A stretch of DNA of 61,557 nucleotides from an uncultured Candidatus Saccharibacteria bacterium (GTDB taxonomy: Bacteria; Patescibacteriota; Minisyncoccia; Phycocordibacterales; UBA5272), in NCBI GenBank assembly GCA_964464695.1, contig CAYXKW010000002.1, forward strand, positions 28,379 through 89,935, in the 5' to 3' direction. Positions within the stretch are counted from its first letter, which is position 1. Every line of letters begins with the position of its first letter. The notes beneath the pieces are model-generated. The model was given only the letters and a program-made list of their open reading frames with translations. It was not told where the DNA came from and searched no databases. Of this stretch, positions 4,663-15,173 are shown in pieces. The translations under genes and the position numbers were made by a program.

Positions 4663-6324
4663 TTACGAGTTCATGTACGCACGAACGAGACGAATATCTT
4701 GATATGAGCACTTACCTTTAAGGTGTTCGTACACTGGTGTTAATTTACGAGTATCTAATTCTTTACATGCTTTTTTAATCGCATCTATTGTTTTCTTTGG
4801 TGGTAATGTGTGCTTGAGTTCGACTATTTCTTTAAGTTCTAACAACTTCTCTATATGTCCGATAATCGTGTCTACCGATAACGACCGTTCTTCAGCAATC
4901 TCAAGAATCGTCAGCCCTGATTGCAACATTTCTTTTGTCTTTTCATGCGAAGGCATTTTTGTTTCAACTTCCTCAACCACACTATCATCAAGCTCAACAA
5001 CAGACCCACCACGTTCTGTGAGGAACTTTTCATGGAGTCGCCCCAACTGTTCATCTGTATATTTTTCAATCGCATTCTCAGCCTGCATACTACGAGTACG
5101 GAAGGTATCATCTGCCTCTCTCACAGCTTCTGCTATCATGAGCGCTTGTGGATTAAAGCCCTTAAGATGGAGCCCCTCGAGAGACTTAAGTCGAGAGAGC
5201 GCAACATACCCTTGTCCTGAAGCAAAGGACCTACTTAAGTCAATTTCTGCCTTATCGAGGGTCATTCCTTGACTCTTGTGTACCGTTATCGCCCAAGCTA
5301 ATTTCACAGGTAATTGCATGAGTTCGGCTTTCACTTTTCCATCTTCTTCTATTTTCCATGAATCTGCTTTGATGGTTATTTTTTTACCATTAACAAGCTC
5401 CACAACAGGAGCTCCTTCATGATCAAAATTAATAACAATCCCCATTGACCCATTCACATAACTTCTATCTTGCGCATTTTTTATACAAATAACTTTTGCA
5501 CCAATTTTGAGCTGAAGAACCTCCTCTGCAAGACAGTTATTCTTAAGGGATGCAAGTAACTGAGCCTTCCCTTTTGTAATCATGTGATACGATCTGACTT
5601 CTCCTGGCATTTTTTTAAATGCCAACATATTAATCTCATCAACATTCTCATTATGTGTATAAAGCTTGATATGATCCTCAGTATGAGCTTTCTCATGAGC
5701 GTCGCGTAACATCTCGTAATGATCTTCTTCTACCTCGCCACTTCGTATAGCATTTAGGATGGATGTAAGCTTATCATCATCTTGTCTGAACTGTTCTGTA
5801 AGATAACACACGACAGGCTTCGCTTCCTTCCATGCTTTAGATGTAAAAGCAAACACTTCTTTATTCTCATATTCATCTCCATGACGCACAACTGGTGGTA
5901 GTTGGAAAAAGTCGCCAGTAAAAACAACTTGTACACCACCAAACGGTAACTCGTTTCTTCTCATGTGCTTCCCCACTTTATCTAACATGTCCACAAATGA
6001 CGCGTGGAGCATCGACACCTCGTCAATAATTAGCACCTGGGTTTCATTCCAACGTTTATAGAGATTAGCTTTTTCTTCAAGAGCATCTAGATCATATGCA
6101 TGTAGCTTTTGTTTTATACCAATACCACTCCATGAATGAATAGTTGTGCCACTAATGTGTGTTGAGGCGATACCTGTTGAGGCAGTTACGGCATATTTAA
6201 CACCGTGACGCTTAAGGTACACAATATACTCACGCAATGCAAAACTCTTACCAGCCCCCGCTGCGCCAGTAAGAAATGTCGTATGACCTAATTTAAGGAT
6301 TTGGAGGGCGGTTGATTGAAGCAT
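4663..6324 (-). CDS. Pif1/RecD-family ATP-dependent DNA helicase with C-terminal helix-turn-helix domain
   Basis: Walker A LTGAAGAGKSF, Walker B IIDEVSML, AITVHKSQGMT and a C-terminal LTILEIAEERSLSVDTIIGHIEKL HTH. Confidence 0.85.
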   Translation of the reverse strand: MLQSTALQILKLGHTTFLTGAAGAGKSFALREYIVYLKRHGVKYAVTASTGIASTHISGTTIHSWSGIGIKQKLHAYDLDALEEKANLYKRWNETQVLIIDEVSMLHASFVDMLDKVGKHMRRNELPFGGVQVVFTGDFFQLPPVVRHGDEYENKEVFAFTSKAWKEAKPVVCYLTEQFRQDDDKLTSILNAIRSGEVEEDHYEMLRDAHEKAHTEDHIKLYTHNENVDEINMLAFKKMPGEVRSYHMITKGKAQLLASLKNNCLAEEVLQLKIGAKVICIKNAQDRSYVNGSMGIVINFDHEGAPVVELVNGKKITIKADSWKIEEDGKVKAELMQLPVKLAWAITVHKSQGMTLDKAEIDLSRSFASGQGYVALSRLKSLEGLHLKGFNPQALMIAEAVREADDTFRTRSMQAENAIEKYTDEQLGRLHEKFLTERGGSVVELDDSVVEEVETKMPSHEKTKEMLQSGLTILEIAEERSLSVDTIIGHIEKLLELKEIVELKHTLPPKKTIDAIKKACKELDTRKLTPVYEHLKGKCSYQDIRLVRAYMNS

Positions 6325-6555: not shown

Positions 6556-6888
6556 GTGAGCACTAGTTCTTTTACGATAAAATACACGCTTCCCTGCGAA
6601 CATTGTGGTAGAAACAAAAATTGCCACACACGAATCGGCAACTGTGTCAGAAAAGGAGACACTGATCTCTTCGAAGGCCACCAGGTCTGCCTAACAAAAT
6701 GTCCCGGCTACAAAGAAAAAGAATGTCGGAGAAAAGGCACAGGCCAAGCACCTGAAGGCACGATTGATTTACGTAGAAAGGTTAGAGTGGCTCCAGGAAA
6801 TACTTTTGAATTCCTGAAAACCCTTCCTCCACCATTCAAGGTAAGTGAAGAGTACCTAGGCGAAAATCGCCGACACCGATTCCAATGA
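6556..6888 (+). CDS. Cys-rich 110-aa ORF (GTG start) or structured ncRNA; identity unresolved
   Basis: AAGGAGG lies 6 nt upstream of GTG. CxxCx5Cx6C ... Cx3Cx7C pattern. C-ending codons atypical for this genome, locally raised GC, and a long ORF also open on the opposite strand. Confidence 0.35.
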   Translation: MSTSSFTIKYTLPCEHCGRNKNCHTRIGNCVRKGDTDLFEGHQVCLTKCPGYKEKECRRKGTGQAPEGTIDLRRKVRVAPGNTFEFLKTLPPPFKVSEEYLGENRRHRFQ

Positions 6889-6901
6889 TAGGAACCCACT
6901 T

Positions 6902-6931
6902 CCACTAGCACAAGTTGCTGGTGGATTTTTT
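6902..6931 (+). terminator. Rho-independent terminator
   Basis: ccactagca / caagt / tgctggtgg (one G-U pair) followed by attttttat. Confidence 0.75.
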
Positions 6932-6952
6932 ATATTCAAGATAATCAACAAA

Positions 6953-7882
6953 CTATACCTTTAAATACTTTCGAACTGCCAAGAAAGAAGATACTACGGT
7001 AAGTACAGATCCGAAAGCAAGTAATGTAAGAGTGAGCTCTACGAAATGCGCTAAGTAAAAATCATTTATATTTAGTCCTTCAAAGAAGAAGACTGTTTTC
7101 TTTGTTACCCAAACAGTTGCTGGGAAGAAAATAACAAGCGTTGTAATAGTTGCAACTATTGCATAGAGAAGTGCTTCTACAATAAATGGACCACGAATAA
7201 ACATATTAGATGCTCCTACAAGCTTCATCACCGCAATTTCATCTCTATACACGAAGATAGCCAGACGGATTGTGTTGTACACTATCATACAACTCATAAG
7301 CACGAAGAGAATTGAAAGCCAGAAACCAACGGTATTCGTCCACCCAATAATACTATTTAATTTATCAATACTATCTTTTATTTGATAGTAGTTTACTTTA
7401 TCAACAACACTTTTGTTATCCCCCAACAATCCTGATTCATTGTTTAACTGGTCTGCAATAGCGGCATAACGTGACGTATCTTTTGCAATCACTGAAAGTG
7501 AGGCACCGAATGGATTATTCCCGAGCTCGTCAAGCGCTTGAAGCGTGAGCTGATCTCCCTCATGCTTTTTCTTGAAATCTAGAAGTGCTTGTTCTTTAGA
7601 AACATACACAACATCCTTAACATCACTTAGTCCAAGTAATTTTGCTTTAATAGTAATAGCTTGCTCTTCTGTAGCGTCAGTTGTTAGGTATACACGAACA
7701 TCTACTTTACTCTTTACTTGCTCAAGCGTGTAATCAAATACTGCTCCGAATAAATAAAAAGATGTGACAATCGAAAGAGTAATCGTTAAAATAAAAATCG
7801 AAGAAAGAGACACCGTTCTATTACGGTAAAAACCTCGTAGCCCTGCCAATATTGTTCTTTTCCACAGTACTGTTTTCATCAT
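6953..7882 (-). CDS. ftsX: Cell division permease FtsX
   Basis: 4-TM FtsX architecture with a large first loop, immediately downstream of ftsE. Confidence 0.85.
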   Translation of the reverse strand: MMKTVLWKRTILAGLRGFYRNRTVSLSSIFILTITLSIVTSFYLFGAVFDYTLEQVKSKVDVRVYLTTDATEEQAITIKAKLLGLSDVKDVVYVSKEQALLDFKKKHEGDQLTLQALDELGNNPFGASLSVIAKDTSRYAAIADQLNNESGLLGDNKSVVDKVNYYQIKDSIDKLNSIIGWTNTVGFWLSILFVLMSCMIVYNTIRLAIFVYRDEIAVMKLVGASNMFIRGPFIVEALLYAIVATITTLVIFFPATVWVTKKTVFFFEGLNINDFYLAHFVELTLTLLAFGSVLTVVSSFLAVRKYLKV

Positions 7883-12015: not shown

Positions 12016-13155
12016 TCAAGTAAAGTACTTTCTGTCTTGTAATTCGTTTGGTAAATATCCATCATCTCCATACATAGCATACCCATCTCCATATCCAATA
12101 TCTTTCATTAATTTTGTTTCTGCATTTCGAAGTTTCATAGGAATTGGAAGGTTGCCCAGCTTTTTTGCGTCATCTAGCGCTTGTAGATATGCATCATATG
12201 ACATGCGACTCTTTTTGGCTTGTGAGAGATACGCTACACCGTGAGCCAAATTAATACCGCATTCAGGAATGCCGATTGTTTCAACCGCTTTAAATACTTC
12301 ATTTGCAATGACAAGAGCTTGTGAATCTACAAGCCCAATATCTTCTGATGCAAAAATAACCATTCGACGTGCAATAAACTTTGGATCTTCGCCAGAAGCA
12401 ATCATCCGCGCCAGATAATACATCGCCGCATCAGTTTGGGACGCTCTCATACTTTTAATAAATGCACTTATGGTATTGTAATGGTCCTCCCCTTTTTTAT
12501 CATACCGAAGTGTTGATGATTGAAGTGTCGACTCTAAATGTTCTACGCTTATCTCACCGCATAACTCAATAGTGTGTTCAAGAACTGATAACATCTGTCT
12601 TGCATCTCCTCCTGACATACGAACAAGCCATTCTTCACTTTCACTATCAATTTTTTTACTAAGTTTTTGTGATGCACGTTTGATTATTTCACGAAGATTT
12701 TCTTCTGTAAGTAACTCGAGTACAAAAACTCGAGCACGAGAAAGTAATGCAGGAATAACCTCAAAACTTGGGTTCTCAGTTGTTGCACCAATCAAAATAA
12801 GTTGACCATTTTCAACATATGGTAAAAGAAAATCTTGCTGTGCTTTATTGAATCGATGTATCTCATCTAAAAAAAGTATTTTTGGACCAAAAAGATTTCC
12901 ACCTTCGAGGATTCTTCTAATATCTTCTTTTCCAGAGGAGACCGCAGAAAGTTCATGATAGTCAGCATTAAGTGCTTTTGCATAAATACGCGCAAGCGAT
13001 GTCTTACCGGTTCCAGGTGGCCCCCACAAAATAAAAGAAAAAGCATGCTTTTTAGTAATTGCCATGTTAAGTGGCTTACCCGGTCCGACAAGATGTGATT
13101 GACCTATATAATCGACGAACGCTTTTGGGCGAAGAAGTGATGCGAGTGGTTCCAT
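12016..13155 (-). CDS. rarA: Replication-associated recombination protein A (AAA+ ATPase)
   Basis: [27 protein letters not shown], MgsA C-terminal region ([10 protein letters not shown]). Confidence 0.85.
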
Positions 13156-13195
13156 TTTTTCAGTATATCAAACCATATTCTGAAAATGTGGAATA

Positions 13196-13225
13196 TTGAC
13201 ACATATGTAAAATATGTGGTATAAT
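13196..13225 (+). promoter_or_regulatory. Sigma70-type promoter with extended -10
   Basis: TTGACA (13196-13201), 18-nt spacer, tgGTATAAT (-10 at 13220-13225), upstream of the NUDIX gene. Confidence 0.6.
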
Positions 13226-13274
13226 ATAAAAAGGAGTATCTGCTCCTTTAGGTTTACAATACAGGAGAATTCTC

Positions 13275-13748
13275 ATGAGTCCAGTTAAATCTAGTAAGGC
13301 TTCCGTTCTTACTATTGGATTACACCAAAAAACAGATGGGAGCATATGGACCCCACTCACAAGGTCAGATGGTTGGGAAAACCCTCTATGGAAAATCGTA
13401 GGAGGAAGAATACTTCCCGAAGAGGAAGCTGAAACGGCGGCGCTTCGTGAATATTGGGAAGAAGTTGGTCTTCGATTAGTAAACCTTCGTCATGTTGGTG
13501 GCATTAATAAACCATCAAATAACCCTCGATTCACATCACACCTTCAACATATTTTTGTTGGTGAAATACCATCACTTGAGGGATTCTTGCCTTCAAGTAT
13601 TGATGGACATGAAAAACTTCAAAATGAATTGTTTAGAGTTCAAGATATTCAACAGGCAATTCGAAATAATGCGGAACTTAATGGATACCGAATTCTCAAC
13701 GCCCATTCAGAAATTTTGGAAACACAGTTTGGTAGAATTTTTGGCTAA
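13275..13748 (+). CDS. NUDIX hydrolase
   Basis: Nudix box GGRILPEEEAETAALREYWEEVGL. Confidence 0.8.
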   Translation: MSPVKSSKASVLTIGLHQKTDGSIWTPLTRSDGWENPLWKIVGGRILPEEEAETAALREYWEEVGLRLVNLRHVGGINKPSNNPRFTSHLQHIFVGEIPSLEGFLPSSIDGHEKLQNELFRVQDIQQAIRNNAELNGYRILNAHSEILETQFGRIFG

Positions 13749-13771
13749 ACTTTTTGTTTTAGCAAAAACAC

Positions 13772-13798
13772 ATGCGCCTCATCGGGGCGTATTTTTTA
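13772..13798 (+). terminator. Probable terminator after the NUDIX gene
   Basis: atgcgcc / tcatcgg / ggcgtat (one G-U pair) followed by ttttta. Confidence 0.45.
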
Positions 13799-13819
13799 TA
13801 CTCAAACAGACATTTCAAG

Positions 13820-13892
13820 AGCCGTTGAGCAGGATTGAACTGCTGACCTCGTCATTACCAATGACGTGCTCTACCAACTGAGCTACAACGGC
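13820..13892 (-). tRNA. tRNA-Thr (anticodon GGU), no encoded CCA
   Basis: Reverse complement GCCGTTGTAGCTCAGTTGGTAGAGCACGTCATTGGTAATGACGAGGTCAGCAGTTCAATCCTGCTCAACGGCT folds as a cloverleaf. Acceptor GCCGTTG/CAACGGC, anticodon stem CGTCA/TGACG with loop TTGGTAA, T-arm CAGCAGTTCAATCCTGCTG-like. Confidence 0.9.
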
Positions 13893-14243
13893 TTATTTTA
13901 TTTTGACTACCTGCGGAGCTTCACTTTATTTGGTAATATCTACCAACTTGCGCCGTGAGCCTGCTGGCTCCCGACATCTTCGAAGCCAAGCTTCTCGATC
14001 TACAACGGCTTATTTTATATTTATTTCACCTACCCACAATTTGCATACTTGAACAGTCTACCAACTGCTTCCTACGCTTGCTAGCTCCGGAAGTCTGCGC
14101 GGCCAAGCCGCTTGAGCTACAACGGCTTATATTATTTCACTAATTAGCTAGTGAGTGTTTAATCTAGCTGGAATGAAGTAATATCTAGTCGAAAACCTGC
14201 TGGTTGTTCGACATCTTCGCGGCCGAGCCGTCTCGACGTGCAG
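13893..14243 (-). repeat. Three tandem 117-nt units upstream of tRNA-Thr; two carry the tRNA 5' 23 nt interrupted by a ~47-nt two-hairpin element
   Basis: Units lie at 13893-14009, 14010-14126 and 14127-~14243. On the minus strand, units 1-2 read GCCGTTGTAG(A/C)TC[A]-insert-AGTTGGTAGA. Inserts are 13949-13996, 14066-14112 and ~14187-14236. Confidence 0.8.
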
Positions 14244-14272
14244 TCGATTGTACCAAAAATTACTCCCCACTG

Positions 14273-14485
14273 CTAGTTGATAGAAAGTATTTTTGATGGT
14301 GAATGATGTCCACTAATAATACGTACGGACATGCCTGGAAACATTTCTCGACACAGCTCAACCACCCTACTATTTGCAAGATTATTTTCTGCAGGAACCT
14401 TTACCCATATACGATATTCATCGTCTTTTAATTTTTCTACTTTTTCCATTTTTGAATCTGGAACAACCTTAATCTTCAGATACAT
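14273..14485 (-). CDS. DUF167 (YggU) family protein
   Basis: MYLKIKVVPDSK ... VKVPAENNLANSRVVELC ... VRIISGHHSPSKIL. Start at ATG complement 14483-14485. Confidence 0.7.
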   Translation of the reverse strand: MYLKIKVVPDSKMEKVEKLKDDEYRIWVKVPAENNLANSRVVELCREMFPGMSVRIISGHHSPSKILSIN

Positions 14486-15173
14486 GTTTCTTTTTCCCGA
14501 TTTTATTTTCCTGTTGTAATCGGTATTCATCAATTAATTTATGATTACCCGACAGGAGCACTTTTGGTACTTTATATTTCTTCTTATCATGCTCATACAC
14601 TTCTGGACGAGCATAAATTTCATGTGACGCTATACGTTTCTCCTCAAGAGATAACTCATCGTGCAGTACGCCTTTAATTTGACGTGAGATAGCATCAATA
14701 CTTACCATTGCAGGTAATTCCCCTCCTGTTAAAACATACTCTCCTATACTCCATTCCTTGGCTTTCAGAATTTTCTTGACTCTCGAGTCAACTCCTTCAT
14801 ATCGCCCACAGATAAAAATAATATCGGTATATTTTTTTGCTGTAGTTTGGGCAAGAGTATTAGTAAACATTTCACCTCCAGCGTTAAAAATTACCACAAG
14901 TACCTTTGAAGTCTTTCTTCGTGCTATTTTCTTTTGTATTTTTTCTACGCAGTTAATAATCGGATCAACCCACATCACCATACCTGGGCCCCCACCGTAT
15001 GGCTTCCCATCAACACGACGATGTTTATCTGTTGTGTATTCTCTAAGTGGGTACGTGCTTACTTCAATTAACTTACTTTCTATTGCACGAAAAATAATCG
15101 ACTCTGCAAAATAAGAGTCGAGCATTTTTGGGAATATTGTGACCACATGGAACCGAAGAGGTTGTTGCTTCAT
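14469..15173 (-). CDS. trmD: tRNA (guanine37-N1)-methyltransferase
   Basis: FHVVTIFPKM ... DGKPYGGGPGMVM ... ICGRYEGVDSRV ... SIGEYVLTGGELPA. Confidence 0.9.
   Translation of the reverse strand: MKQQPLRFHVVTIFPKMLDSYFAESIIFRAIESKLIEVSTYPLREYTTDKHRRVDGKPYGGGPGMVMWVDPIINCVEKIQKKIARRKTSKVLVVIFNAGGEMFTNTLAQTTAKKYTDIIFICGRYEGVDSRVKKILKAKEWSIGEYVLTGGELPAMVSIDAISRQIKGVLHDELSLEEKRIASHEIYARPEVYEHDKKKYKVPKVLLSGNHKLIDEYRLQQENKIGKKKHVSED

What the first reader, a model, noticed from the sequence alone, without database searches (positions are those of the whole stretch)
13893..14243. Three 117-nt tandem units upstream of tRNA-Thr, two carrying the tRNA 5' 23 nt split in the D-loop by a covarying two-hairpin mini-element
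All sequences below are read on the minus strand, the tRNA strand.

Layout:
- The functional tRNA starts GCCGTTGTAGCTCAGTTGGTAGA.
- Unit 14010-14126 starts GCCGTTGTAGCTCA, then a 47-nt insert, then GTTGGTAGA.
- Unit 13893-14009 starts GCCGTTGTAGATC, then a 48-nt insert, then AGTTGGTAGA.
- After that point neither unit resembles the rest of the tRNA.
- A third, more diverged unit (14127-~14243) keeps the insert.

Structure of the inserts:
- Each insert folds into two hairpins.
- Hairpin 1 is GCGGC-TTG-GCCGC, CGGC-TCG-GCCG or TCGA(G)AAGC-TTG-GCTTCGA.
- Hairpin 2 has an outer stem CTTCC/GGAAG, GTCG/CGGC or GTCGAA/TTCGAC.
- Its inner stem closes a conserved AGCA loop: GCT-AGCA-AGC, GAGCC-AGCA-GGCTC or AACC-AGCA-GGTT.
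- The stems differ in sequence yet stay complementary.
- One pair is G-U only on the minus strand, which argues for a selected RNA (or ssDNA) structure in the tRNA orientation.

Possible readings:
- A miniature insertion element that targets the D-loop sequence.
- Tandemly duplicated tRNA promoter/leader units producing small structured RNAs.

I know of no described equivalent.
Basis: seen in the sequence. Interest (0 to 1): 0.68.

Follow-up and report, generated by a model that had tools for sequence, protein, structure and literature searches.

The report
Hairpin mini-elements colonising a tRNA gene
Upstream of a threonine tRNA gene in an ultra-small (CPR/Paceibacteria) bacterium sit three copies of a roughly 100-base, two-hairpin insertion element that also lies beside many other tRNA genes, and in frame inside a protein gene, in related genomes. 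I found no earlier description of this family of probably selfish mini-elements, which interrupts tRNA gene copies while an intact copy always stays next door.

Summary
Window 13893-14243 (minus strand) holds three 117-nt-spaced units upstream of tRNA-Thr(GGT). U2 and U1 start with the tRNA's own first 13 nt, then a 47-48-nt two-hairpin insert, then AGTTGGTAGA (tRNA nt 14-23).

It is not a local oddity. A covariance model finds 32 distinct copies in the window and 18 related loci. Of stem positions, 84% are paired, with 79 compensated cells against 26 in shuffles.

In relatives the element sits upstream of at least seven tRNA species, always in sense orientation. Almost every copy is preceded by that tRNA's own nt 1-13. 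One relative has it alone, exactly between nt 13 and 14 of a decayed full-length tRNA copy.

A fourth window copy (47383-47436) lies in frame inside tgt. About half of close Tgt homologues lack an insert at that site.

Sister genomes show 0-3 units and clean empty sites. There is no Rfam match, no coding frame, and no transposase domain in the 61 kb.

Best reading: a non-autonomous, RPE-like miniature insertion element. Copies persist at tRNA genes only where a duplicated 5' end keeps an intact gene. The array is probably just transcribed leader. How it moves and how the duplication arises are unresolved.

The parts
14247..14255 (-). Extended -10 promoter TGGTACAAT that most likely drives the whole array plus the tRNA
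   Evidence: TTTTTTTGnTACAAT is conserved at this position downstream of the DUF167 gene in L006, L007, L008, L013, L016, L019, L020, L028 and L196. Promoter function is inferred from the consensus, not shown.
14236..14246 (-). Native 5' part of the tRNA leader (CGACTGCACGT).
   Evidence: The same 11 nt follow the promoter in relatives that have no element there: L196, L016, L013 and L019.
14127..14235 (-). Unit U3, an element inserted in the leader. Hairpin core is 14188-14235: CGAG, hp1 CGGC-TCG-GCCG, linker CGAAGAT, hp2 GTCGAACAACC-AGCA-GGTTTTCGAC. Next comes TAGATATTAC plus about 35 nt. Last is the native leader tail TTAGTGAAATAATATAA (14127-14143).
   Evidence: Covariance model hit 14184-14238, 56.2 bits. 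Fold. A copy at the same position in L008 differs by two compensated stem pairs. An almost identical hp2 sits in the L196 pseudo-tRNA.
14010..14126 (-). Unit U2. Copy of tRNA nt 1-13 (14114-14126); hairpin core (14067-14113); tRNA nt 14-23 AGTTGGTAGA (14057-14066); conserved 30-nt tail core (14027-14056); copy of the leader tail AAATAAATATAAAATAA (14010-14026).
   Evidence: Covariance model hit, 63.9 bits. Repeats. The matching unit in L196 has a 30-nt direct repeat, leader -17..-1 plus tRNA 1-13. U2's hp2 is nearly identical to the hp2 of the tgt copy.
13893..14009 (-). Unit U1. Copy of tRNA nt 1-13 with one mismatch (13997-14009); hairpin core (13949-13996); AGTTGGTAGA (13939-13948); 46-nt tail ending AAAATAAAATAA (13893-13938).
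   Evidence: Covariance model hit, 68.4 bits. Fold -19.4 kcal/mol with a U-G pair on this strand.
13819..13892 (-). Intact tRNA-Thr(GGT), the functional gene regenerated downstream of the units
   Evidence: ARAGORN; Rfam RF00005, 69.8 bits.
13772..13792 (.). Hairpin terminator shared by the tRNA transcript and the convergent NUDIX gene
   Evidence: Terminator scan. A T-run follows the hairpin on both strands. No terminator-like site lies inside the array.
47348..47436 (-). Fourth copy of the hairpin element, in frame inside tgt. It adds 27 residues (..SRSEERRRVPELASEGTTINQTLKNFKCL) between MMGW and PTFTDSGG.
   Evidence: Covariance model hit 47383-47436, 37.7 bits, E=5e-8. PDB alignment shows the insertion. 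Homologue alignment. Empty and triple-filled sites at DNA level.
46364..47722 (-). tgt (tRNA-guanine transglycosylase) gene that hosts the fourth copy
   Evidence: PDB phmmer E=2e-81 to Zymomonas mobilis Tgt. PF01702 in homologues.

Best explanation
The three units are copies of a small, non-coding, non-autonomous insertion element family that lives in Paceibacteria/Nomurabacteria-type CPR genomes.

Its core is about 48 nt: RAG, a short hairpin (4-5 bp, loop UYG or GAAGA), the linker CGAAGAU, and a 9-10-bp hairpin with an ARCA loop.

Most tRNA-linked copies also carry a D-loop-like NCAGTYGGTAGA and a conserved roughly 30-nt tail.

The core lands 3' of a TC dinucleotide, always in the sense orientation of the local transcript. 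In tRNA genes that point lies between nt 13 and 14.

An insertion there would kill the gene. The copies that persist are those where the tRNA's first 13 nt, often with the last nucleotides of its leader, are present twice. An intact tRNA then follows the element.

U2 and U1 are two such events stacked at one gene. U3 is a third copy that landed in the leader.

The array is most likely transcribed from the single promoter at 14247-14255 as a leader of about 360 nt. RNase P would remove it at the true tRNA 5' end.

On this reading the array is tolerated selfish or neutral DNA rather than a regulator. The hairpins are conserved because the family needs them to propagate, as single-stranded DNA or RNA of the sense strand.

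Shown here: the family, its structure, its contexts, its orientation, the target-matched repeats and presence/absence polymorphism.

Inferred: mobility itself, co-transcription, RNase P removal and lack of host function.

Unknown: the enzyme, and how the duplication arises.
For: - Family and structure. There are 32 distinct copies in 19 sources. 84% of stem cells are paired, against 68% in shuffles and 26-45% with slid partners. 11 of 14 pairs change on both sides. Compensated cells number 79 against 25.8+-5.5, with 0 of 500 shuffles reaching that. An independent MAFFT alignment of 21 copies gives the same picture.
- tRNA contexts. Units lie upstream of Thr-GGT/CGT/TGT, Ile-GAT/TAT, Val-TAC and probably Lys-TTT.
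- Matched repeats. In 12 of 15 units the first 7 nt match their own tRNA with no mismatch. This holds across 11 different tRNA 5' ends; the mean against other tRNAs is about 4 mismatches.
- Recent spread. Two L023 units are about 90% identical to each other, yet each carries the 5' end of its own tRNA, GGT or CGT.
- Core alone. It lies between nt 13 and 14 of a decayed full-length tRNA-Thr copy in L196.
- In a protein gene. It lies in frame in tgt. L189 shows an empty site and L190 three tandem modules. Of 115 close homologues, 54 are empty and 61 filled.
- Patchy distribution. Only 5 of 48 trmD-linked tRNA-Thr(GGT) genes in species-level genomes carry a unit. The closest relatives L005, L006 and L007 have none.
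- Unit number ranges from 0 to 3.
- Partial 5' copies almost always carry the element. Only one, L022, lacks it.
- No intrinsic terminator or promoter-like site lies inside the array.
- Every copy shares the orientation of the adjacent tRNA or gene.
- The G.A/A.G excess over C.U/U.C in stems is 27 to 5.
Against: - No mobilising enzyme is identified. None of the 63 window ORFs has a transposase, integrase, HUH or reverse-transcriptase domain.
- The units have no terminal inverted repeats.
- The direct repeat is not a classical fixed-length target duplication. Its left edge is at +1 in about 8 cases, but at -14, -17, -19 and -80 in others.
- Core-only insertions show no duplication.
- Copies at the same position in related genomes (U3 vs L008A; U2 vs the L196 unit) differ by compensated changes. 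That could instead mean host-level selection on an RNA structure.
- Gene conversion among copies could mimic recent transposition.
- Sampling is biased.
- Transcription was not observed.
Confidence: 0.6

Rival explanations
1. Duplication first, hairpin later. tRNA loci in these genomes often make partial or complete tandem duplicates. The hairpin element, still a mobile or spreading sequence, simply accumulates in the D-loop of the dead copies. The units are decaying pseudo-tRNAs, not products of a coupled insertion-plus-regeneration event.
For: - L196 has a full-length decayed tRNA-Thr copy with only the core at nt 13/14.
- L022 has a decayed tRNA duplicate without the element.
- In L148 the repeat comprises 80 nt of native leader plus nt 1-13, and the tRNA-derived part after the element reaches nt 20.
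- In L073/L144 that part reaches nt 37. Together these cases look like a deletion series.
Against: - The junction GGTAGA|YTRTTCAAACGTGCACAAAG and the 30-nt tail are the same at Thr, Ile and Val genes in different genomes. This block therefore travels with the core and is not local leader.
- The tail is not detectably tRNA-derived (best case 39 of 300 shuffles score as high).
- Element-free partial 5' copies are rare: 1 against at least 12.
Confidence: 0.2
2. Functional leader RNA. The units are selected parts of the pre-tRNA. The copy of nt 1-13 could pair with the tRNA's 3' acceptor strand, or with a 3' trailer copy. The hairpins could bind a protein or an RNase, so as to control maturation, stability or the amount of tRNA.
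For: - The 5' copy tracks the acceptor sequence of its own tRNA across 11 variants.
- Hairpins are conserved by compensated changes, even between copies at the same position in related genomes.
- Orientation is strictly sense.
- In L073/L144 the outer 5' and 3' pieces co-vary, and the spacers round the inner tRNA pair with about 13 compensated pairs.
Against: - The units are absent from most orthologous tRNA-Thr loci, including the nearest relatives.
- Copy number varies from 0 to 3.
- The same core is translated in frame inside tgt, where no RNA role is needed.
- There is no Rfam family and no terminator or antiterminator logic.
- The window has no 3' trailer copy.
Confidence: 0.13
3. Scars of site-specific integration. 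The units are attL-like remnants left by an integrase-mobilised element (a CIME-like mini-island) that integrates in the D-loop region and carries a replacement tRNA 5' end.
For: - A direct repeat of a tRNA segment that ends exactly at the gene boundary is the classic signature of tRNA-targeting integrative elements.
- Related loci also show 17-22-nt repeats of the tRNA 3' end (T-loop to 3' end) downstream of the gene.
- In L144 the inner tRNA differs from the outer pieces, as if it had been brought in.
Against: - An element-borne replacement end would be the same at every target. Here near-identical elements carry 11 different, target-matched 5' ends.
- A mismatched end would inactivate the tRNA.
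- There is no integrase in the window.
- The supposed islands are only about 100 nt.
- The core also occurs in tgt and in leaders with no tRNA sequence.
Confidence: 0.05
4. A purely local, decaying tandem duplication with no wider significance.
For: The three units are tandem and diverged.
Against: Homologous copies exist at seven tRNA species, in tgt, and in many genomes and metagenomes, with covarying stems.
Confidence: 0.02

Closest known systems
Rickettsia palindromic elements (RPEs)
   Same: Both are short, non-coding, hairpin-forming repeats with no transposase of their own. Both are scattered in a reduced genome, in intergenic DNA and in frame inside protein-coding genes. Rickettsia PheT, for example, carries a 63-84-bp RPE-7-like insert (PMC1779305). 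Both show lineage-specific proliferation.
   Different: The host phylum is unrelated, and I see no sequence relationship (not formally tested). RPEs are 100-150 bp, whereas this core is about 48 nt. To my knowledge RPEs are not tied to tRNA D-loop positions, nor accompanied by a duplication that regenerates a tRNA gene.
Mitochondrial GC clusters / double-hairpin elements (fungal and other organelle genomes)
   Same: Both are G+C-rich mini-elements in an A+T-rich genome that fold into one or two hairpins. They insert into intergenic regions, next to or into RNA genes, and into each other (own knowledge; papers listed, e.g. PMC4478555).
   Different: Those elements are organellar. No target-matched tRNA 5' repeat is known for them, and in-frame coding insertions are rare.
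MITEs (e.g. Correia/NEMIS, cyanobacterial Nezha and small dispersed repeats)
   Same: Both are non-autonomous, dispersed, often co-transcribed with neighbouring genes, and sometimes nested.
   Different: MITEs have terminal inverted repeats and a short fixed target duplication. Neither is present here. The repeats here are 13-93 nt, or absent.
tRNA-gene-targeting mobile elements (integrase-borne islands with tRNA 3' repeats; Dictyostelium TRE5/TRE3; yeast Ty3)
   Same: Both have a strong preference for tRNA genes and a fixed orientation relative to the gene. Both leave a repeat of a tRNA end that keeps the gene intact.
   Different: Those elements are large and autonomous. Islands duplicate the 3' part and carry one fixed replacement sequence. 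TRE and Ty3 insert outside the gene. Here a roughly 100-nt element interrupts the D-loop coding position, and the duplicated 5' end comes from the target.
REP/BIME elements mobilised by RAYT, and IS200/IS605-derived palindrome-associated elements
   Same: Both are strand-specific, hairpin-based elements. In both, the single-stranded fold rather than the sequence is conserved. IS200/IS605 types insert 3' of a short specific sequence without duplication.
   Different: No GTAG head is found here. The two hairpins are unlike each other. The copies are not restricted to extragenic space. No RAYT or TnpA gene was seen, although only 61 kb could be checked.

Membership tests
MITE | Terminal inverted repeats at the element ends | tested here: not met
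   None of the six inverted-repeat pairs in 13700-14400 lies at unit termini. Unit ends are RAG... and ...AAATAA.
MITE | Short target-site duplication of fixed length | tested here: not met
   Direct repeats are 13, 27, 30, 32 and 93 nt at tRNA genes. None is visible for core-only insertions in tgt or the L196 pseudo-tRNA.
MITE | An autonomous IS with the same ends in the same genomes | not testable with these tools
   Whole genomes could not be scanned. No transposase domain was found in 63 window ORFs.
RPE-like palindromic insertion elements | Short dispersed hairpin-forming non-coding repeat | tested here: met
   32 copies with covarying stems.
RPE-like palindromic insertion elements | In-frame insertion into protein-coding genes with the reading frame kept | tested here: met
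   The tgt copy adds 27 residues without a stop. L190 has one to three modules in frame. The empty site is in L189.
RPE-like palindromic insertion elements | Sequence homology to RPE-1..RPE-8 | not tested
   No RPE models were available. Host and sequence make homology unlikely. This is therefore filed as 'works like', not as a member.
tRNA intron (group I or archaeal bulge-helix-bulge) | The insert interrupts a gene whose exons would make a functional tRNA | tested here: not met
   Every interrupted copy is truncated (ends at nt 20, 23 or 37) or decayed (L196). An intact uninterrupted tRNA lies next to it. None of the ARAGORN-called tRNAs contains the element.
tRNA intron (group I or archaeal bulge-helix-bulge) | Ribozyme core or splicing motif | tested here: not met
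   No Rfam intron family matched at E<=10 or E<=1. 48 nt is far too short for a group I core. A bulge-helix-bulge motif was not searched for specifically.
Integrase att-site scar / cis-mobilisable mini-island | Direct repeat of a tRNA segment that ends at the gene boundary | tested here: met
   The repeat of nt 1-13 starts at +1 in about 8 cases.
Integrase att-site scar / cis-mobilisable mini-island | The element carries one fixed replacement tRNA end and targets one tRNA | tested here: not met
   11 different target-matched 5' ends. The two L023 elements are about 90% identical but carry different ends.
Integrase att-site scar / cis-mobilisable mini-island | Recombinase gene in or near the element | tested here: not met
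   No integrase or recombinase domain in the window. The rest of the genome was not testable.
REP/RAYT or IS200/IS605-derived palindromic elements | Strand-specific hairpin element inserted 3' of a short conserved sequence without duplication | tested here: inconclusive
   Sense orientation holds in all copies. All junctions follow TC: GCTC|, GGTC|, CGTC|, CATC|. Core-only insertions lack duplication, but tRNA-linked units have long repeats.
REP/RAYT or IS200/IS605-derived palindromic elements | Left and right hairpins alike (bound by one TnpA), or a GTAG-headed palindrome | tested here: not met
   hp1 (GGC-TYG-GCC) and hp2 (GTCGAAAGTT-AGCA-AACTTTCGAC) are unrelated. The only GTAG motifs are tRNA-derived.
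Cis-regulatory tRNA/aaRS leader (T-box, attenuator, riboswitch) | Conserved at orthologous loci, with a terminator/antiterminator or other expression platform | tested here: not met
   Present at 5 of 48 orthologous tRNA-Thr(GGT) loci. No terminator-like site in the array. No Rfam hit.
SINE-like retroposon | tRNA-derived body, A-rich 3' tail, variable target duplication, reverse-transcriptase partner | tested here: inconclusive
   An A/T-rich tail and variable repeats are present. The body holds a D-loop-like 11-mer, but the tail is not significantly tRNA-like. No RT is in the window, and the rest of the genome could not be tested.

The most novel reading that the evidence does not exclude
The element may be a new kind of tRNA-gene-specific mobile DNA that heals its own target. 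It would insert into the single-stranded, D-loop-coding sense strand. The tRNA's 5' end would then be rebuilt from the target itself, either by a target-primed or template-switching copy step, or from the tRNA in an R-loop. A mirror-image form would rebuild the 3' end from the T-loop onwards.

Alternatively, the flanking end-copies plus hairpins may form a leader-trailer scaffold that CPR bacteria use to process pre-tRNAs.
Probability: 0.15. Interest if true: 0.85.

Novelty: new variant of a known kind. Interest (0 to 1): 0.6.

Why it matters
- CPR/Patescibacteria genomes are thought of as extremely streamlined. This points to a dispersed, structured mini-element family that I did not find described. 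It reshapes their tRNA loci and inserts peptides next to the Tgt active-site motif.
- Practical consequences:
  - It creates tRNA fragments and pseudo-tRNAs that confuse annotation.
  - It may break assemblies. The contig of the closest relative ends right after trmD.
  - It gives variable-number markers for strain typing.
- Biological interest:
  - It is a natural example of an insertion into an essential single-copy tRNA gene made harmless by duplication of the gene's end.
  - Matching 3' forms occur in relatives.
  - The mobilising machinery is unknown and could be new.

Tried and rejected
- Known RNA family. Rfam at E<=10 over 13000-15000 and at E<=1 over seven related loci gave only tRNA hits.
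- Protein-coding repeat. The 117-nt period equals 39 codons, and a 62-aa plus-strand ORF spans two units. But no frame stays open across units in the window or relatives, and unit lengths are 116, 117, 118 and 143 nt.
- Internal promoters or terminators in the units. The consensus scan found none on the tRNA strand.
- Tandem Repeats Finder did not report the array, because the copies are too diverged. The repeat finder did.
- Phage origin. Two viral-contig scans gave only chance hits in 66%-GC contigs, or nothing.
- The metagenome pattern scan was about 90% chance hits in high-GC contigs. Only the 10 or so low-GC hits were real.
- The idea that the 30-nt tail is a degenerate tRNA T-arm/3' end was not significant.
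- G-U against A.C counts as a strand test were indecisive, 8 to 5. The G.A against C.U asymmetry was informative.
- A search for closer relatives with a different unit number failed. The closest assembly's contig ends at trmD.
- Homologous-recombination, Campbell-type and integrase models were rejected on paper. They would place the donor's acceptor strand in the functional tRNA.
- Literature searches found no earlier description in CPR bacteria.
Full report
**1. Observation**

On the minus strand the window reads: trmD (14469-15173), a DUF167 gene (14273-14485), a 380-nt spacer, tRNA-Thr(GGT) (13819-13892), a hairpin terminator, and a convergent NUDIX gene.

The repeat finder gives start-to-start spacings of 117/117 and 117/120 nt, a 60-nt pair at 78% identity and a three-copy 25-nt family at 88-96%.

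U2 and U1 begin with the tRNA's first 13 nt. A 47-48-nt insert follows, then AGTTGGTAGA (tRNA nt 14-23), then 46-47 nt that are not tRNA-like.

Each insert folds into the two hairpins described. The same array is present, base for base, in three to four independent assemblies of this strain.

**2. Anatomy, refined**

Relatives show a conserved extended -10 promoter (TTTTTTTGnTACAAT) just after the DUF167 stop. A leader that starts C(G/C)(A/T)(C/A)TGCACGT follows it.

- In the window that leader start (14236-14246) runs directly into U3's hairpin core.
- So U3's 'diverged tRNA 5' end' is native leader, and U3 is an element sitting in the leader.
- U3 ends with the native leader tail (TTAGTGAAATAATATAA).
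- U2 and U1 each consist of tRNA nt 1-13, the core, nt 14-23, a roughly 30-nt tail core, and a copy of the leader tail.
- The matching unit in L196 (TrmD 89% identical) makes this explicit. Its direct repeat is 30 nt, leader -17..-1 plus tRNA 1-13.

**3. It is a family**

A trmD-anchored scan of species-level genomes returned 64 loci, titled Candidatus Paceibacterota, Nomurabacteria, Parcubacteria and the like. tRNA-Thr(GGT) follows trmD in 48 of them.

- Five carry homologous units directly upstream: L008, L013, L016, L023 and L043.
- Two more, L012 and L033, break off inside units.
- The nearest relatives L005, L006 and L007 have clean empty sites: promoter, a short leader (about 19-90 nt), then the tRNA.

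An element-internal pattern scan of metagenomes gave mostly chance hits in high-GC contigs. Every low-GC hit was a true copy.

- All lie just upstream of a tRNA: Ile-GAT, Ile-TAT, Thr-GGT/CGT/TGT, Val-TAC and probably Lys-TTT.
- The Thr-TGT and Lys-TTT assignments were read by eye from tRNAs cut by contig ends.
- In 12 of 15 units the first 7 nt equal the tRNA's own acceptor strand, across 11 different 5' ends.
- The two L023 units, at the GGT and CGT genes, are about 90% identical and share a nested extra hairpin pair. Each still carries its own tRNA's 5' end.

**4. Structure**

A MAFFT alignment of 21 copies, with the two hairpins imposed, gave these figures:

- 84% of cells paired;
- 10 of 14 pairs with changes on both sides;
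- 53 compensated cells against 17 in shuffles (0 of 500 shuffles reach it);
- 24-48% paired when partners are slid.

A covariance model built from that alignment finds 32 distinct copies. It gives the same result: 79 compensated cells against 26.

Hairpin 1 varies between GGC-TYG-GCC, TAAC-TTG-GTTA and CCAC-GAAGA-GTGG. Hairpin 2 keeps GUC...GAC, an ARCA loop and, in many copies, internal G.A/A.G pairs.

Non-canonical stem positions are G.A/A.G 27 times against C.U/U.C 5 times. This points to the sense strand as the one that folds, as RNA or as single-stranded DNA.

All 32 copies have the orientation of the adjacent tRNA or gene.

**5. The core alone is an insertion**

In L196 a decayed but full-length second tRNA-Thr(GGT) copy carries 49 nt of core exactly between nt 13 and 14, and nothing else.

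In the window the model finds a fourth copy at 47383-47436 (37.7 bits, E=5e-8, filters off). It lies in frame inside tgt.

- Against Zymomonas mobilis Tgt it is a clean 27-residue insertion between MGW and P(T/I)(F/L)TDSGG.
- At DNA level the empty site in L189 reads TGG TCT GGC CCT.
- The window has one module at that site. L190 has three tandem hp1-CGAAGAT-hp2 modules.
- Of 115 close Tgt homologues, 54 have the empty 5-residue segment and 61 carry 10-62 residues.
- Many of those residues are literal translations of the element, such as SRSLASKTS, SSSSAAKTS and SRSEERRRVPELASEG.
- All junctions follow a TC: GCTC| in tRNAs, GGTC| in tgt, CGTC|/CATC| in leaders.

**6. What it is not**

- It matches no Rfam family.
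- It is not coding.
- No consensus scan found promoters or terminators in the units.
- It has no terminal inverted repeats.
- It was not found in viral contigs.
- None of the 63 window ORFs of at least 80 residues has a transposase, integrase, HUH or reverse-transcriptase domain. The window is ordinary CPR chromosome: ATP synthase, pentose-phosphate genes, UvrB, RNase R and so on.
- The conserved tail is not detectably tRNA-derived.

**7. Mechanism**

Shown:

- a dispersed, structured, orientation-specific element;
- its presence/absence at orthologous sites;
- its position at nt 13/14 of tRNA copies that are never the functional one;
- target-matched repeats.

Inferred:

- Insertion at nt 13/14 of a single-copy tRNA is lethal unless nt 1-13 are duplicated, so only regenerated genes are seen.
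- U2 and U1 are two stacked events, and U3 is a leader insertion.
- The array is read through from the one promoter and removed by RNase P.

The origin of the duplication is open.

- Homologous, Campbell-type or integrase-type recombination would put the donor's acceptor strand into the working tRNA, so they do not fit.
- A fixed-stagger transposase does not fit repeats of 13, 27, 30, 32 and 93 nt.
- A copy mechanism that duplicates target DNA could fit: template switching, target-primed synthesis, or repair templated by the tRNA in an R-loop. A pre-existing partial duplication also remains possible.
- Element-free 5' duplicates are rare, 1 against at least 12. The core, D-loop-like 11-mer and tail move as one block between different tRNAs. 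Both facts favour a coupled event.
- L196, L148 and L073/L144 show that locus-specific duplications also occur.

**8. Comparison and novelty**

The closest analogues in behaviour are:

- Rickettsia palindromic elements, which occur in intergenic DNA and in frame in genes (PMC1779305);
- mitochondrial GC-cluster/double-hairpin elements (own knowledge).

The element fails the defining tests for MITEs, introns, integrase scars, REP/IS200-type elements and regulatory leaders (see the membership table).

Literature searches found no description of this family, or of a tRNA-regenerating layout, in CPR bacteria.

I rate it a new variant of a known kind (miniature palindromic insertion elements). Its target biology is unusual and its mobilisation is unresolved.

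**9. Caveats**

- Loci were sampled through trmD or through one sequence pattern, so contexts other than tRNA genes are under-sampled.
- E-values from the short-calibrated model are rough.
- Gene conversion among copies could imitate transposition.
- No expression data exist.

Noticed in passing
L008 ~6700-7007 (minus), L023 7238-7500, L072, L110, L181, L016, L027, L042, L067 (downstream of the tRNAs): In these loci the tRNA is followed by 100-270 nt of GC-richer hairpin modules. Shared motifs are GATTAGTAAATC, CGAGAGACG and GAAACTTGTA. L008 and L023 also contain a hairpin-element copy. Each module block ends with a direct repeat of the tRNA's last 17-22 nt (T-loop nt 55-57 to the 3' end). This is a mirror image of the 5' units. 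The window has none.
   Followed up: partly
L073 8461-8732 and L144 3907-4172: tRNA-Ile(TAT) is nested between a 5' piece (nt 1-13 + element + nt 14-37) and a 3' piece (anticodon loop to 3' end) of an outer copy. In L144 the outer ends (GCACCTG/CAGGTGC) pair with each other but differ from the inner tRNA (GCGCTCA). The spacers flanking the inner tRNA pair with about 13 doubly compensated pairs between the two loci. That suggests a leader-trailer helix or inverted repeats.
   Followed up: partly
window 46364-47722 (tgt), residues ~142-184: Besides the element-derived insert, this clade's Tgt carries a second insertion of about 40 residues relative to Zymomonas mobilis Tgt. It is rich in K, E and S, and is conserved among close homologues.
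   Followed up: no
L005, L016, L024, L036, L047 versus L006, L020, L028, L031: The tRNA-Thr(GGT)/tRNA-Thr(CGT) pair downstream of trmD is on the opposite strand in some relatives and on the same strand in others. The window has only the GGT gene, and that gene is its only tRNA in 61.5 kb.
   Followed up: no
L195 (GCA_020049755.1, contig JAHZTO010152132.1): The contig of the closest relative (TrmD 95% identical) ends immediately after trmD. This may be an assembly break caused by a repeat array like the one in the window.
   Followed up: no
window 4663-6324 (-): A Pif1-like helicase with a C-terminal HTH_40 domain. It is the only protein in the window that looks related to DNA transactions beyond ordinary repair genes. 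No link to the element is shown.
   Followed up: no
L065 ~7100-7135 and ~7235-7269; L022 7955-8046 (minus): The L065 leaders, such as TTGTAGCTCGAAGTTTGTTTCTTGTCACTTGAAT, look like A+T-decayed remnants of the element in a distant relative. L022 has a decayed tRNA-Thr(CGT) duplicate with GCTCG|GTTGG at the junction and no hairpins, possibly a unit that lost its core.
   Followed up: no
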